Source: a virus (lineage: Duplodnaviria > Caudoviricetes). Taken from it: a DNA stretch of 59,619 nucleotides. Positions within the stretch are counted from its first letter, which is position 1. Every line of letters begins with the position of its first letter. The DNA lies in IMG/VR virus record IMGVR_UViG_3300046170_000404, positions 1 through 59,619 of that record. One strand, given 5' to 3'. Position numbers and translations under genes: made by a program. Positions 6,655-9,535 of this stretch are shown here, piece by piece. The notes beneath the pieces were generated by a model that saw nothing but the letters and a program-made list of their open reading frames with translations, did not search any database and was not told where the DNA came from.

Positions 6655-6705
6655 TTACAAGAAAAATATTTTTAATTAAAATGTTGTATGTTATATTTAC
6701 TTATC

Positions 6706-7819
6706 ATGAAAATAACTATTTTAGGAAGGGGTAATGCTGGATGTATATCTGCAATGCACCTTGCATATTTTAGAAAATTTAAAAATACTAAAGTAGAAAT
6801 AGATTTAATTTACGACTCTAACATTCCACCAGTGCCTACAGGTCAAGGTACTACGTTAGAATTTCCTGAAAAATTATTTGAAAATTTTGGCTCAAGTATT
6901 TTTAAATCATTTCCACATACTATTAAAGGTGGGATCATGTATGAAAATTGGAATAAAAAAAATAATAAATTCTTTCATTCTTTTCCTGTAGGTAAGTATG
7001 GATTACATATAGAACCTAAGGCATTTCAAGATTATGTATGTAATAATTTAAAAGTAAATTTTATGTCTAAGGATGAAAACATACAAAGCTATGATAGCCG
7101 TGGATTCAGATTACATTATTGATTGCAGAGGTAAGCCCTCTGATTTTAATGATTATGCTCCCCTCGTTAATCCACTTAACTGTGCTTTATTATCTGAGCT
7201 GCCACCAAAGGTAAATGATGTAAAATGGACTAGAGCAATTGCTCATGAACATGGTTGGTGTTTTTATATACCTTTACCAAGTAAAACTTCTTTAGGATAC
7301 CTGTTCAATTCAAACATAACTACAGCTGAAGAGGCTACTCTAAATTTTAAGAAAAAATTTGGAATAGAAAAAGTAAACAAAGTATTTCCTTTTAATCAAT
7401 ATATAGCCAAAGATCCCATTATAGATAATAGAGTCCTTCTTAATGGTAATAAATTATTTTTTTTAGAACCCTTAGAAGCTACTGCAATGGCTACTTATAA
7501 TTTTACTATTCAATGTTACTTCGATTATATGTTTCATAATATTGATGGTCAAACAACTAAATTCAAAATATTAGATTATATAAATAAAGTTGAAAATTTT
7601 ATTTTATGGCAATATCGAAACAATACTTTCTATCAAACTAAATTTTGGGATTTTGCTAATAAGCTTTCATTAAATACAGATCTTGGAGATTTAAATAGAA
7701 TAATGACTGTGGTCAAAGATATGACTGCAGAAGATACTAGAAAAAGTATTAAAGACAATGATAACTATGCTCAATGGCAGAATTGGAATTTTAAAATTTT
7801 TCATGACAACAGAATTTAA
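6706..7819 (+). CDS. Tryptophan-halogenase-like FAD-dependent oxidoreductase, frameshift near 7095
   Basis: ITILGRGNAG Rossmann motif, DYIIDCRG, GWCFYIP, FLEPLEAT. Confidence 0.75.
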
Positions 7820-7844: not shown

Positions 7845-9140
7845 TTACCTTCCTATCAATTCTGCTAAACCTCTACCATAACCTTTTGTAGTTCTACCAG
7901 GTTCGTTTGCTCTAGGAGTCGGATAAAACTTTCTTGATTGCGAGTCCGAAGATTCTTGCCATTTGTGGGACGATTGCGTTTCCGAGACTTTTGATTCTGC
8001 TTGCTCTATCTTTGTCCAATTCTCTGGAAATCCCATTAGGAACTCCACAAAGGTCGGATTCAATTTGCCACCAGGTTTTGGTATTTCGTTCTTTAGCATG
8101 TTGCCCACTACTGTTGATTTCCCCTTCTGACTGATTGGGAACGTCACGTTCTTTGAGTCGTGAGCCGTGGGTGTTGGTATTTGATTCTTGTCTGTGTTGT
8201 AAATCTTGTTCACTACATCGTTCAACTTCGCTCCGAACTTGGTTCCAGTGCCAACCCTCGTTACACTCCAACCTGATGAGTTCTGCTTCACTGTCTCTGG
8301 TGGTGCTACTACATCCATCTGACAACTCGCTGATGGTGTAGGAAACATTTGCATGTGTGCCGTCAGATTGTGTTGAGATGCTGCCTTCTCTCCCTTCCTC
8401 TTGATTAATGTCTCTGCATCCTCCTGTCCCGATGCTCTCGGTGTTGGATACATCTTCACTTGATCTGCTGCTATTCGTTGACCCAGACTGTGACCTCTCG
8501 TTTTCCCTACTGAGGGTGGTACCTTGTTCACTGAGTCCTTCCAATCTCTTGCGTTCGGTGTTGGGTACATCTTCTTTTGTTTCTGTATTTCGTCTGCTAC
8601 TACTCTCATCGATAGATCCATTCCCCTCGTTTTCCCTATTGATGGTGGCACTGTGTTCCTTGAATGATCTTGTGATGTCGGTGTTGGATACATCTTCATC
8701 GTTTCTGGATCCACTTGTTCTCTTAGATTCGATGGTTTGGTTCTGCCCTTCCTGTGTCCCTCCATTAATTTTTTTGTCCCTGCTGAGCTTCTCGGCGGCA
8801 AGTAATCCATTGTGTTTGGAGTGGCCCACAATCCAGACTCTAAATCTTTGGTGCCAAGCACCGATGCCTGAAGCTGGTATAAGGAAACATTGGACTTCGA
8901 AACCTTCACCTTCCAAGTCATCTTGCACCTGTCTGAGGACCATGCCGTTTTGGAGGTTAACAAGTCCTTGCACATTCTCCCCAATAACGAACTCGGGTTT
9001 GATTTCTTTAATGAGTCTAAACATTTCTGGCCAGAGATAACGGTTGTCGTCTCTCCCTTTTTGTTTTCCTGCAACGCTGAACGGCTGGCAGGGAAAACCT
9101 CCGACCACGATGTCTGCTTCGAATTCTTTTCCTTTGACAT
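7845..9140 (-). CDS. Alternative-frame second subunit of the C5 methyltransferase (PTP repeat modules plus motif IX)
   Basis: 431 aa ORF nested in the MTase gene; LNPTFVEFLMGFPENW is motif IX-like; repeated PTP modules. Confidence 0.75.
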   Translation of the reverse strand: MSKEKNSKQTSWSEVFPASRSALQENKKGETTTVISGQKCLDSLKKSNPSSLLGRMCKDLLTSKTAWSSDRCKMTWKVKVSKSNVSLYQLQASVLGTKDLESGLWATPNTMDYLPPRSSAGTKKLMEGHRKGRTKPSNLREQVDPETMKMYPTPTSQDHSRNTVPPSIGKTRGMDLSMRVVADEIQKQKKMYPTPNARDWKDSVNKVPPSVGKTRGHSLGQRIAADQVKMYPTPRASGQEDAETLIKRKGEKAASQHNLTAHMQMFPTPSASCQMDVVAPPETVKQNSSGWSVTRVGTGTKFGAKLNDVVNKIYNTDKNQIPTPTAHDSKNVTFPISQKGKSTVVGNMLKNEIPKPGGKLNPTFVEFLMGFPENWTKIEQAESKVSETQSSHKWQESSDSQSRKFYPTPRANEPGRTTKGYGRGLAELIGR

Positions 9141-9312
9141 TTTTTATATCTCCTTCAATTGGTATGTTTGGATAATTCTTTTTTAAAACCTTTTGACAAA
9201 ACTCATCAAACTCTACAAACTTAATTGTATCAAATATTCCTGTTGAGTGGAGGCCTAACGAGAAGCCTCCAATCCCAGAAAATAAATCTAAAACTTTTAA
9301 TTTATTTTCCAA
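7912..9312 (-). CDS. dcm: DNA cytosine-5 methyltransferase, catalytic subunit
   Basis: Motif I LDLFSGIGG, IV GFPCQ, VI ENV, VIII HQRFR, X LGNAIVP. Confidence 0.92.
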   Translation of the reverse strand: MENKLKVLDLFSGIGGFSLGLHSTGIFDTIKFVEFDEFCQKVLKKNYPNIPIEGDIKNVKGKEFEADIVVGGFPCQPFSVAGKQKGRDDNRYLWPEMFRLIKEIKPEFVIGENVQGLVNLQNGMVLRQVQDDLEGEGFEVQCFLIPASGIGAWHQRFRVWIVGHSKHNGLLAAEKLSRDKKINGGTQEGQNQTIESKRTSGSRNDEDVSNTDITRSFKEHSATINRENEGNGSIDESSSRRNTETKEDVPNTERKRLEGLSEQGTTLSRENERSQSGSTNSSRSSEDVSNTESIGTGGCRDINQEEGREGSISTQSDGTHANVSYTISELSDGCSSTTRDSEAELIRLECNEGWHWNQVRSEVERCSEQDLQHRQESNTNTHGSRLKERDVPNQSEGEINSSGQHAKERNTKTWWQIESDLCGVPNGISRELDKDRASRIKSLGNAIVPQMARIFGLAIKKVLSDS

Positions 9313-9535
9313 TGTATTCTTTTCTACTAGCGTCTCTCATTTTTAAGAATTTAAATTTTGCTATCTTTAACATTCTTTCAAATAAAGACTCTGCTTTAAA
9401 TGTTTTAACAACATTCATTATTTTACCATTCACTATAAATGTAAGTGTGTTGTTTGCATGATCTAACTCAATAGTAAAAAGTTCTTTTGCTTTTATTCGA
9501 GTATCAACTCTTTTTAGATCGTTTTCCGTCATCAT
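9302..9535 (-). CDS. Hypothetical protein
   Basis: Operon-like overlaps. Confidence 0.65.
   Translation of the reverse strand: MMTENDLKRVDTRIKAKELFTIELDHANNTLTFIVNGKIMNVVKTFKAESLFERMLKIAKFKFLKMRDASRKEYIGK

What the first reader, a model, noticed from the sequence alone, without database searches (positions are those of the whole stretch)
7845..9312. Two-frame C5 methyltransferase with an array of about seven PTP modules in the nested frame
Seen: the 466-aa frame has motifs I, IV, VI, VIII and X, but its variable region is a featureless Ser/Arg/Glu-rich stretch and motif IX is missing. A second frame stays open for 431 codons over the same DNA and supplies a motif IX-like LNPTFVEFLMGFPENW plus tandem ~35-55 aa modules starting LWATP, MYPTP, MYPTP, MYPTP, MFPTP, QIPTP, with one more (FYPTP) after motif IX. 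Modules have variable cores, often ending in a G..L-type helix, and share DNA junctions (GG(A/G)TACATCTTC near 8446, 8564, 8686). Established: M.EcoHK31I uses an alternative-frame beta polypeptide carrying motif IX; multispecific Bacillus phage MTases use tandem target-recognition domains. Inference: an overprinted, modular multispecific methyltransferase whose specificity cassettes can be shuffled at the junctions to evade several host restriction systems, under the constraint of keeping both frames open.
Basis: partly seen in the sequence, partly recalled or inferred. Interest (0 to 1): 0.85.

Follow-up and report, generated by a model that had tools for sequence, protein, structure and literature searches.

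The report
Two-frame phage cytosine methyltransferase with cassettes
One stretch of this ocean phage's DNA is read in two frames to make the two halves of a DNA cytosine methyltransferase, and the half that should read DNA carries a row of small modules that related phages gain and lose.

Summary
On the minus strand, frame A (7912..9312, 466 aa) is a C5 DNA methyltransferase with motifs I, IV, VI, VIII and X. Frame B (+1, 7845..9140, 431 aa) carries seven xTP modules and motif IX.

This is not chance. In 5000 synonymous-codon permutations, none kept frame A open across the module region, and the third frame has 26 stops. The same +1 nesting is intact in 127 complete viral or metagenomic loci.

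[quoted passage not shown] Frame B has a conserved Shine-Dalgarno sequence plus ATG. A complex model docks it on frame A (ipSAE 0.88, best control 0.00).

Relatives carry 1-7 modules before motif IX, drawn from about 29 types. Module gains and losses fall at direct repeats of up to 21 nt at module junctions.

Best reading: a heterodimeric enzyme of the M.EcoHK31I kind, but with the recognition part moved to the nested chain as a cassette array.

Multispecificity and an anti-restriction role remain untested inference. I rate it a new variant of a known kind, widespread and mostly unannotated.

The parts
7912..9312 (-). Frame A = alpha chain (466 aa plus stop). It is the catalytic domain of a C5 DNA methyltransferase with motifs I, IV, VI, VIII and X. 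It starts at TTG, overlapping the stop of the upstream ORF 9302..9535.
   Evidence: pN/pS is 0.21 in the N-terminal part.
7845..9140 (-). Frame B = beta chain (431 aa plus stop), +1 relative to A. It comprises a docking N-domain, six xTP modules, motif IX, a linker and a seventh module.
   Evidence: (phrog_1008, E 1.3e-32).
9150..9155 (-). Shine-Dalgarno AAGGAG, 9 nt upstream of beta's ATG (9138..9140), lying inside alpha codons IEGD.
   Evidence: A GGAG-type motif plus ATG is kept in all 29 loci examined, even where alpha changes G to E.
9265..9288 (-). Alpha motif I, DLFSGIGG (SAM binding).
   Evidence: invariant in 21 of 21 alpha sequences.
9076..9099 (-). Alpha motif IV, GFPCQPFS (catalytic Cys75). 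It is overlapped by beta's N-terminus.
8965..8982 (-). Alpha motif VI, GENVQG.
8824..8850 (-). Alpha motif VIII, QRFRVWIVG. It is overlapped by the end of beta's N-domain and the start of module A.
8832..9035 (-). Core of the beta N-domain (residues 36-103; two helices and a hairpin at 72-94). It is dual-coded with alpha motifs IV-VIII, and its hairpin is predicted to pair with alpha strand 139-146.
   Evidence: Synonymous diversity of frame A falls from 0.366 to 0.08-0.14 here. Interface list; secondary structure.
8083..8814 (-). Alpha linker (residues 167-410). It is kept open, but its amino-acid sequence is unconstrained.
   Evidence: Frame A pN/pS is 4.5-20 over modules A, B and C. None of 5000 permutations is open. 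Its length varies among the 21 aligned alphas.
8694..8831 (-). Beta module A (residues 104-149, LWATP...). It is nearly constant in the close clade and touches alpha in the model.
   Evidence: 113 copies; frame B pN/pS 0.148.
8571..8693 (-). Beta module E, first copy (residues 150-190, MYPTPTSQD...).
   Evidence: It is absent, together with the second copy, from L013, L015, L026 and L028.
8454..8570 (-). Beta module E, second copy (residues 191-229, MYPTPNARD...).
   Evidence: (D2 repeat, 80% over 41 nt against the first copy).
8349..8453 (-). Beta module C (residues 230-264, MYPTPRASGQED...).
   Evidence: 92 copies; frame B pN/pS 0.096, frame A 20.
8184..8348 (-). Beta module B (residues 265-319, MFPTPSASC...; three strands and a helix). 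This is the type present in nearly all relatives and resembles the only module of the smallest ones.
   Evidence: 107 copies; frame B pN/pS 0.078.
8064..8183 (-). Beta module G (residues 320-359, QIPTPTAHD...). Optional among relatives.
   Evidence: 20 copies; frame B pN/pS 0.098; only 3 distinct sequences.
8013..8063 (-). Beta motif IX, LNPTFVEFLMGFPENWT (residues 360-376). It is dual-coded with alpha's conserved WWQIESDLCGVPNGIS.
   Evidence: frame B pN/pS 0.21; L360, P362, V365, E366, L368 and M369 invariant; alpha W414, W415, S419, P425 and G427 invariant.
7963..7986 (-). Alpha motif X, LGNAIVPQ (residues 443-450). Here beta is the unconstrained frame.
   Evidence: frame A pN/pS 0.206, frame B 0.967.
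7848..7928 (-). Beta module F (residues 405-431, FYPTPRANEPGR...), after motif IX and mostly beyond alpha's stop.
   Evidence: 27 copies.
8433..8462 (.). Junction repeat at the start of module C (reference copy of family D1).
   Evidence: a 21-nt exact repeat flanks the 240-nt indel.
8550..8579 (.). Junction repeat at the start of the second E module.
8673..8702 (.). Junction repeat at the start of the first E module.

Best explanation
The locus encodes one C5 DNA methyltransferase made of two chains read from the same DNA in two frames.

Alpha (frame A) is the catalytic domain. It carries motifs I-VIII, then a roughly 245-residue linker whose only requirement is to contain no stop codon, then motif X.

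Beta (frame B, +1) starts at its own Shine-Dalgarno sequence and ATG inside alpha. Its N-domain hairpin adds to the edge of alpha's sheet at motifs VII/VIII. Its motif IX packs on alpha's motif X. Between those two anchors it carries an array of 29-58 residue xTP modules, each a PTP turn, a loop and often a G..L helix. I take these modules to be the DNA-recognition part.

Constraint alternates along the DNA: A plus B, then B, then A, then B. Each chain uses the other's essential segment as its own free linker.

Short direct repeats at module junctions (up to 21 nt, always in phase) let modules be deleted, duplicated or exchanged without closing either frame. That produces the many architectures seen in related phages.

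Shown here: both frames are under selection where stated; the arrangement is conserved; modules are gained and lost at junction repeats; docking is predicted.

Inferred, not shown: the modules are target-recognition cassettes (about 45% that they give several specificities); the enzyme protects the phage genome from restriction.
For: Openness and composition
- None of 5000 permutations keeps frame A open over the module region, and the third frame has 26 stops.
- GC is 0.29 in the A-only part and 0.46-0.47 once the overlap starts.

Conservation
- Of 40 IMG/VR loci, 31 are complete with both frames, 7 are cut by a contig end with both frames still open, 1 is too short and 1 is broken.
- Of 80 metagenome loci, 71 show the same arrangement.
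- There are 127 complete loci, giving 82 distinct beta proteins.
- The same +1 nesting occurs in Paenibacillus phages, where both genes are annotated in Tadhana. It also occurs unannotated in Sulfitobacter phage phiGT1, Phage C75C1 and P. polymyxa plasmid pAP1.

Selection
- Frame A pN/pS is 0.21 in motifs I-VIII and 0.206 at motif X.
- Frame B pN/pS is 0.078-0.148 in modules A, B and C, and 0.21 at motif IX.
- Frame A's synonymous diversity is halved to quartered under beta's N-domain.

Translation signals
- A Shine-Dalgarno sequence plus ATG precedes beta in 29 of 29 loci.
- No X_XXY_YYZ slippery site lies at either frame transition.

Binding model
- ipSAE was 0.88, 0.88 and 0.90 in three runs, against 0.00 for the best of 3 controls. 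That mark was reached by 58 of 80 solved complexes and 2 of 110 mismatched pairs.
- The runs share at least 97% of contacts and the partner's pLDDT is at least 68. My own alignments were used, so those counts hold only roughly.

Modules
- 585 modules from 121 proteins fall into 29 clusters and 60 architecture strings.
- A 240-nt indel is flanked by a 21-nt exact repeat in 4 of the 8 loci compared. Other indels have 10- and 11-nt repeats.

Size of the family
- 1518 hits.
- 6077 representative clusters at E <= 1e-3.
Against: - There is no direct evidence of translation or of methylation.
- Beta alone folds poorly (mean pLDDT 53.7 and 57.0).
- Beta has no Pfam, NCBIfam or PDB sequence match, and a Foldseek search of the small model found nothing at E <= 0.001. 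The claim that the modules recognise DNA therefore rests on their position between motifs VIII and IX and on analogy.
- The complex pass may partly reflect the model's memory of solved single-chain C5 methyltransferases.
- Modules E, C, B and G make no confident contact in the model.
- The module E selection test gave no signal: 3 distinct sequences mixing two subtypes, pN/pS 1.0 and 1.1.
- One contig (L017 = L064) has several frame breaks.
- Rare relatives (P0098, P0105 and others) carry motifs IX and X in one frame. This shows the split point is not fixed.
- The likely host group is SAR11, because TerL is 91.9% identical to that of Pelagibacter phage HTVC023P. I did not examine its restriction systems.
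Confidence: 0.78

Rival explanations
1. It is a two-chain enzyme as above, but the modules together build one DNA-binding domain with a single specificity. Alternatively, several are inert pseudo-domains, and module number tunes affinity, flanking preference or nothing.
For: - Modules A and B are nearly constant (113 and 107 copies in 121 proteins).
- The smallest relatives work with one B-like module (L043).
- Module order is mostly collinear.
- Single-chain Mycobacterium phage Wachhund has four short, similar PTP repeats in frame, which looks more like a repeat domain than like distinct TRDs.
- From recall only: pseudo-domains are described for Bacillus phage methyltransferases.
Against: - Optional modules are each strongly conserved as types (frame B pN/pS about 0.1 for C and G) and differ greatly from one another.
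- Modules are inserted or removed as whole units with no change elsewhere. This is the pattern known for independent TRDs.
Confidence: 0.3
2. A single polypeptide is made by two programmed frameshifts: A to B after motif VIII, and B to A after motif IX. That would recreate a canonical I-VIII, TRD, IX, X enzyme.
For: - The motif order across frames is that of a canonical enzyme.
- Rare relatives join IX and X in one frame (P0098 and P0105).
- An A7 run lies at 8769-8775, just after motif VIII.
Against: - Frame A is kept stop-free through the whole module region (0 of 5000 permutations). That would be needless if ribosomes left frame A.
- Beta's first 105 residues lie upstream of any such shift, yet they are conserved, selected, preceded by a conserved Shine-Dalgarno sequence plus ATG, and predicted to dock on alpha.
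- No canonical slippery heptamer lies at either transition.
Confidence: 0.04
3. Only one frame is a gene. The other is open through base composition or sequencing error.
For: - The coding strand is T-poor (AT skew to -0.47 on the + strand).
- A 210-aa ORF is open even on the opposite strand (8408..9040).
Against: - The third frame has 26 stops in the same DNA.
- Permutations never keep frame A open.
- Each frame shows purifying selection in its own segments.
- Both frames are intact in 127 complete loci.
Confidence: 0.01

Closest known systems
M.EcoHK31I (E. coli; YGGCCR)
   Same: Two polypeptides are needed. Beta is read from a different frame of the alpha gene. [quoted passage not shown]
   Different: - There the predicted TRD is on alpha and beta holds only motif IX. 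Here alpha's variable region is an unconstrained linker, and the TRD-like array plus a docking N-domain are on beta.
- Here beta runs 67 nt beyond alpha's stop.
- Sequence homology to M.EcoHK31I could not be tested, because no sequence was at hand and the 1995 paper is not held.
M.AquI (CYCGRG)
   Same: It is a natural two-chain C5 methyltransferase split in the variable region. Its smaller chain carries the distal variable region and motif IX (passage in PMC3404938).
   Different: - In M.AquI, beta also carries motif X, and the passages read say nothing of overlapping frames.
- In this window motif X is on alpha.
- Rare relatives of this family (P0098, P0105, P0217, P0223, P0239) do have IX and X in one frame.
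Multispecific C5 methyltransferases of Bacillus phages (SPR, phi3T, rho11, H2) and M.(phi)BssHII
   Same: - Phage-borne enzymes with tandem target-recognizing domains in sequential order between motifs VIII and IX.
- M.(phi)BssHII has TRDs at separated places, as module F lies after motif IX here.
- Basis: titles seen in the reference list of PMC8936443; the rest is recalled.
   Different: - Those are single chains in one frame.
- No Bacillus phage appears in the organism tally of the 54 phage records that match beta by tblastn.
- Multispecificity is not tested here. The papers themselves are not held.
Nested methyltransferase genes of Paenibacillus larvae phages (for example TADHANA_54 and TADHANA_55)
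   Same: They are true relatives. Alpha is 357 aa. The nested +1 beta is 234 aa, with the same N-domain, three xTP modules and motif IX. Both are annotated as DNA-cytosine methyltransferase.
   Different: - They have three modules, and beta lies wholly inside alpha.
- In the passages I read, the genome paper lists two DNA-cytosine methyltransferase rows in its gene table and does not discuss the nesting (PMC6070908).

Membership tests
C5 DNA methyltransferase (PF00145 / TIGR00675) | Profile match above the curated cut-off | tested here: met
   Alpha: PF00145 at 174.6 bits (cut-off 22), E 4.6e-51. TIGR00675 at 157.9 bits (cut-off 100.65).
C5 DNA methyltransferase (PF00145 / TIGR00675) | Motifs I (FxGxG), IV (PCQ, catalytic Cys), VI (ENV), VIII (QxRxR) and X (GNxxxP) | tested here: met
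   All five are in frame A at residues 9-16, 72-79, 111-116, 155-163 and 443-450, and are invariant in 21 alpha sequences. The motif names and consensus forms are recalled.
C5 DNA methyltransferase (PF00145 / TIGR00675) | Motif IX in the same chain, between the TRD and motif X | tested here: not met
   Motif IX is absent from frame A and present in frame B at 360-376. In relative P0098, where IX and X share a frame, residues 312-376 align to PF00145 positions 257-323 at E 0.018, which is below the cut-off.
M.EcoHK31I-type two-frame heterodimer | Beta is read from another frame of the alpha gene | tested here: met
   Beta starts 172 nt inside alpha in frame +1. It extends 67 nt past alpha's stop.
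M.EcoHK31I-type two-frame heterodimer | Alpha carries motifs I-VIII and X; beta carries motif IX | tested here: met
M.EcoHK31I-type two-frame heterodimer | The TRD is on alpha | tested here: not met
   Alpha residues 167-410 show frame A pN/pS of 4.5-20 over modules A, B and C. The conserved modules are in beta.
M.EcoHK31I-type two-frame heterodimer | Both chains are required for activity | not testable with these tools
   Only a predicted complex is available (ipSAE 0.88, best control 0.00).
M.EcoHK31I-type two-frame heterodimer | Sequence homology to M.EcoHK31I alpha and beta | not tested
Multispecific phage C5 methyltransferases | Several tandem TRD-sized units between motifs VIII and IX | tested here: met
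   Six units of 35-55 aa lie before motif IX and one after it. Relatives have 1-7 before motif IX.
Multispecific phage C5 methyltransferases | Each unit confers its own target sequence | not testable with these tools
   This needs methylome reads from module variants.
Multispecific phage C5 methyltransferases | Single polypeptide | tested here: not met
   The modules are in a different frame from the catalytic motifs.
M.AquI-type split enzyme | The smaller chain carries both motif IX and motif X | tested here: not met
   Motif X is on alpha in the window and in all loci scanned: 0 of 61 and 0 of 80 have X in beta's frame. It is met only in some database proteins.

The most novel reading that the evidence does not exclude
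This would be a natural cassette system for methylation specificity, hidden in a second reading frame.

Beta subunits of this kind form a large and almost wholly unannotated family: 6077 representative clusters, with no Pfam or NCBIfam model.

Their xTP modules would be independent target-recognition cassettes. They would be exchanged between ocean phages by recombination at in-phase junction repeats.

Every cassette would have to be written so that the catalytic chain's linker stays open in the other frame. The result would be reciprocal overprinting, in which each protein's essential segment serves as the other's spacer.
Probability: 0.4. Interest if true: 0.88.

Novelty: new variant of a known kind. 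Interest (0 to 1): 0.76.

Why it matters
- **Annotation.** Gene callers that forbid same-strand nesting miss one chain. Several deposited phage and plasmid records annotate only alpha, so these methyltransferases look as if they lack motif IX and a recognition domain.
- **Evolution.** About 1.2 kb is dual-coded, with constraint passing back and forth between frames. Cassettes are exchanged without breaking either frame. This gives a clean natural case for studying how overlapping genes evolve.
- **Use.** If each module sets a target sequence, the family would be a ready library of small recognition units for a split, and so controllable, cytosine methyltransferase. Module content could then predict phage methylomes in metagenomes.

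Tried and rejected
- **Fold of beta alone.** The window's beta gave mean pLDDT 53.7 and pTM 0.22. The smallest relative, from L043, gave pLDDT 57.0 and pTM 0.27. Both are too weak to interpret beyond secondary structure.
- **Foldseek search of the small model against the PDB.** 0 matches at E <= 0.001, and the top rows were unrelated. I discarded it.
- **Sequence searches with beta.** Searches of the PDB (E up to 10), Pfam and NCBIfam returned nothing. The ESM Atlas returned only unnamed, mainly viral clusters.
- **A natural experiment that could not be run.** In relatives whose motif X has moved to beta (P0098, P0105), frame A should be free to close after motif VIII. I looked for their DNA in viral contigs (none among the 61 loci with a motif IX ORF, of 64 locus ids) and in metagenome contigs (0 of 80). 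It was not found, so the test could not be done.
- **Tandem Repeats Finder.** It found no array at DNA level.
- **Programmed frameshifting.** No canonical heptamer lies at either transition.
- **Primary papers.** The papers on M.EcoHK31I, on the order of TRDs and on M.(phi)BssHII are not held. Supplementary files were not consulted.
- **Literature searches.** Searches listed no paper describing a nested beta chain with a module array. The library lacks most subscription journals, so this is not proof that none exists.
Full report
WHAT IS THERE

The window is a complete virus record of 59,619 bp, 99% complete by CheckV. It carries DNA polymerase, helicase, primase, portal and terminase genes. 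Its terminase is 91.9% identical to that of Pelagibacter phage HTVC023P, so it is a HTVC023P-type marine phage.

Two ORFs overlap on the minus strand:
- Frame A, 7912..9312, 466 aa, TTG start.
- Frame B, 7845..9140, 431 aa, ATG start, shifted +1.

Frame A is a C5 DNA methyltransferase: PF00145 at E 4.6e-51 and TIGR00675 at 157.9 bits. It has motifs I, IV, VI, VIII and X but no motif IX. Its residues 167-410 are rich in S, E, N and R.

Frame B has no Pfam, NCBIfam or PDB sequence match. It does match phrog_1008, named 'DNA methyltransferase', at E 1.3e-32 over residues 10-166. Frame B carries seven [AP]TP motifs at 106, 152, 193, 232, 267, 322 and 407, and LNPTFVEFLMGFPENW at residue 360. Shuffles of its sequence give 0.33 such motifs on average, and none of 20000 reached seven.

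IT IS NOT CHANCE

Over B codons 109-385, frame A has no stop and the third frame has 26. Permuting B's synonymous codons never leaves A open (0 of 5000; mean 8.5 stops). Recoding B with the phage's own codon usage gives a mean of 27.7 stops.

The reverse also holds. Frame B is open over alpha codons 58-165 in only 2.1% of permutations, and in 0 of 5000 recodings.

GC content is 0.291 in the part of the gene read only in frame A. It jumps to 0.469 and 0.460 where the overlap begins (profile). That pattern fits avoidance of AT-rich stop codons in two frames. It does not fit a foreign origin for the whole gene.

CONSERVATION

Frame B has 1518 database relatives at E <= 1e-3 and 6077 representative clusters (2010 at E <= 1e-10). 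None of the 120 listed carries a precomputed Pfam domain.

| Set of loci | Standard arrangement | Other |
|---|---|---|
| 40 IMG/VR loci | 31 complete (A with motif X; B in +1 with motif IX) | 7 cut by a contig end with both frames open; 1 too short (L038); 1 with several frame breaks (L017) |
| 80 metagenome loci | 71 | 6 do not reach motif IX; 3 cut by a contig end |

In the complete IMG/VR loci the third frame has 20-32 stops. Pooling all scans gives 127 complete loci and 82 distinct beta proteins. Some contigs recur between collections.

The same +1 nesting exists far away:
- Paenibacillus larvae phages have an alpha of 357 aa and a beta of 234 aa. Both are annotated in Tadhana; only alpha is annotated in Xenia.
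- A marine Chosvirus has it.
- It is present without a beta annotation in Sulfitobacter phage phiGT1, in Phage C75C1 (six modules) and in Paenibacillus polymyxa plasmid pAP1.

Mycobacterium phage Wachhund is a useful contrast. It is a single chain with four PTP units, motif IX and motif X all in frame.

WHICH FRAME IS UNDER SELECTION, AND WHERE

| Region | Sequences | Frame A pN/pS | Frame B pN/pS |
|---|---|---|---|
| A-only N-terminus | 22 distinct of 29 loci | 0.21 | not coding |
| Module C | 13 distinct of 18 | 20 | 0.096 |
| Module B | 13 distinct of 16 | 4.5 | 0.078 |
| Module A | 12 distinct of 20 | 7.8 | 0.148 |
| Module G | 3 distinct of 4 | not computable (pS = 0) | 0.098 |
| Motif IX region | 11 distinct of 22 | 1.25 | 0.21 |
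| Motif X region | 13 distinct of 17 | 0.206 | 0.967 |

In the A-only N-terminus, diversity at frame A's third codon position is 0.366. Under beta's first 108 codons it falls to 0.159, and under beta residues 36-108 it falls to 0.08-0.14. Frame A's pS drops from 0.539 to 0.241. This is the signature of a second constraint on the same DNA.

At the motif IX region, alpha also keeps W414, W415, S419, P425 and G427 invariant.

Module E gave no signal: only 3 distinct sequences, mixing two subtypes, with pN/pS near 1 in both frames.

So constraint runs A (with B) over motifs IV-VIII, then B over the modules and motif IX, then A over motif X, then B beyond alpha's stop. Alpha's middle is a spacer that must merely stay open. 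Its length varies among the 21 aligned alphas. Stop-to-stop, frame A spans 265 to 520 codons across loci.

HOW BETA IS MADE

AAGGAG lies 9 nt before beta's ATG. A GGAG-type motif plus ATG is kept in 29 of 29 loci, even where alpha's residue changes from G to E.

Alpha starts at TTG in 18 of those 29 loci. In the window its start overlaps the stop of the upstream ORF.

No canonical X_XXY_YYZ site lies at either frame transition.

Two facts argue for two chains rather than one frameshifted chain. Frame A is kept open through the modules. And beta's N-domain, which lies upstream of any plausible shift site, is conserved.

PREDICTED ASSEMBLY

The complex model supports binding but does not show it.
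- ipSAE was 0.88, 0.88 and 0.90 in three runs. The best of 3 controls scored 0.00.
- That mark was reached by 58 of 80 solved complexes and by 2 of 110 mismatched pairs.
- The runs share at least 97% of contacts, and the partner's pLDDT is at least 68.
- My own alignments were used, so the calibration counts hold only roughly.

Beta's hairpin (residues 81-92) pairs with alpha strand 139-146. Beta residues 355-380 (motif IX) pack on alpha 411-466 (motif X) and on the motif I region. This is what a canonical C5 enzyme would look like if it were cut, so the pass may owe something to solved single-chain structures.

Modules E, C, B and G make no confident contact.

THE MODULES

I cut 121 close relatives at each xTP and obtained 585 modules in 29 clusters.
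- Cluster A has 113 copies, B 107 and C 92.
- Optional types include E (38 copies), G (20), H (17), and I, J and K (11 each), plus N, O and P.
- Post-IX types are F (27 copies) and D (89).

There are 60 architecture strings. The count is inflated by proteins cut at contig ends. The window reads A-E-E-C-B-G-[IX]-F, and no other protein in the set has that string.

Among the 82 distinct complete betas, the number of modules before motif IX is 1 (2 proteins), 2 (4), 3 (26), 4 (21), 5 (15), 6 (13) or 7 (1). The window has six (a looser xTP pattern was used there).

Order is mostly collinear, with a few exceptions such as K placed before O-C.

The smallest relatives (L042 and L043; alpha 265 aa, beta 183 aa stop-to-stop) have the N-domain, one B-like module and motif IX.

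At DNA level I compared 8 loci with the window:
- L004 is identical over 939 nt.
- Four loci (L013, L015, L026, L028) lack exactly 240 nt, the two E modules. The breakpoint lies inside a 21-nt exact direct repeat.
- L005 lacks 123 nt, with a 10-nt repeat at the breakpoint.
- L012 also lacks 240 nt, but the aligner placed that gap with no shared repeat. It has an extra 99 nt flanked by an 11-nt repeat.
- L007 shows complex replacement.

Flanking identity is 0.91-0.99. The window's own junction repeats sit at 8433, 8550 and 8673, with weaker copies at 8328 and 7908. Their spacings are multiples of three.

COMPARISON WITH WHAT IS KNOWN

M.EcoHK31I is the precedent for a beta chain read from another frame of alpha, with motif IX on beta. 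In that enzyme, however, the predicted TRD is on alpha (passages read in PMC2836561, and PMC3404938).

M.AquI is split in the variable region and has motifs IX and X on its smaller chain (PMC3404938). A few database relatives of this family have that form (P0098, P0105, P0217, P0223, P0239). In P0098 the IX-X stretch aligns to the end of PF00145 at E 0.018, below the cut-off.

Tandem TRDs are the hallmark of the multispecific Bacillus phage enzymes. I saw only the titles of those papers, in a reference list (PMC8936443). The papers are not held, so the rest is recalled.

The Paenibacillus phage genome paper does not discuss the nesting in the passages I read (PMC6070908). The pelagiphage preprint names a DNA cytosine methyltransferase only in a figure legend (10.1101/2019.12.14.876532).

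Seven literature searches listed nothing describing a nested chain with a module array. The library is incomplete, and I did not see any supplements.

WHAT IS NOT SHOWN

- Translation of either frame.
- Methylation.
- The target sequences.
- Whether each module reads its own site.
- Any role against restriction.

Beta alone folds poorly and a fold search found nothing.

VERDICT

The two-frame, two-chain reading is well supported.

The cassette behaviour of the modules is shown at sequence level. Their function as independent specificity units is a reasonable but untested inference, at about 0.4-0.45.

The finding is a new variant of a known kind. It is widespread in phages and largely unannotated.

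Noticed in passing
window 6688..7122 and 7073..7819 (+): Two ORFs overlap by 50 nt in different frames. The second matches phrog_2928, 'tryptophan halogenase', at profile positions 194-425 of 475. The first begins with a dinucleotide-binding-like GRGNAG. This looks like one FAD-dependent halogenase-like gene split by a frameshift, or another two-frame arrangement.
   Followed up: no
relatives P0043, P0007, P0017, P0067 and others; absent from the window: Of the 121 close beta relatives, 89 continue after motif IX into an extra domain of about 140 aa that begins FYRTPTAMDKG (cluster D). The window's beta lacks it and ends at module F. A 1-nt difference near window B-ORF nt 1287 ends it a few codons earlier than in relatives such as P0112.
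   Followed up: partly
proteins P0098, P0105, P0217, P0223, P0239: In these variants motifs IX and X are in the same frame, so beta would carry X as in M.AquI. P0098 and P0105 share the same junction but have different module sets. Their DNA was not among the 64 viral or 80 metagenome loci fetched. A real lineage cannot be told from a recurrent 1-nt error.
   Followed up: partly
L017 = L064 (IMG/VR contig of 60,254 bp): This is the only complete locus where the arrangement is broken. Motifs I, IV-VI, IX and X fall in shifted frames. It may be an error-rich assembly or a decaying copy.
   Followed up: no
L044 (Sulfitobacter phage phiGT1), L046 (Phage C75C1), L047 (P. polymyxa plasmid pAP1): These deposited records annotate only the alpha gene. 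In each, a +1 ORF holds an N-domain, PTP modules (one, six and four respectively) and motif IX. Module A of the window recurs almost unchanged in pattern in C75C1 and pAP1.
   Followed up: partly
L045 (Mycobacterium phage Wachhund) 1223..1756: This single-chain methyltransferase has its PTP units in frame. A 178-aa +1 ORF over motifs IV-VIII still resembles the beta N-domain and has one PTP unit. The genome is GC-rich, so the ORF could be chance.
   Followed up: no
window 8769..8775: An A7 run on the coding strand lies just after motif VIII. Loss of one A in a transcript would join alpha 1-180 to frame B. There is no evidence that this happens.
   Followed up: no
window 8408..9040 (+): A 210-aa ORF is open on the opposite strand across the module region. 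It is probably a by-product of the T-poor coding strand (AT skew to -0.47). It was not tested for conservation.
   Followed up: no
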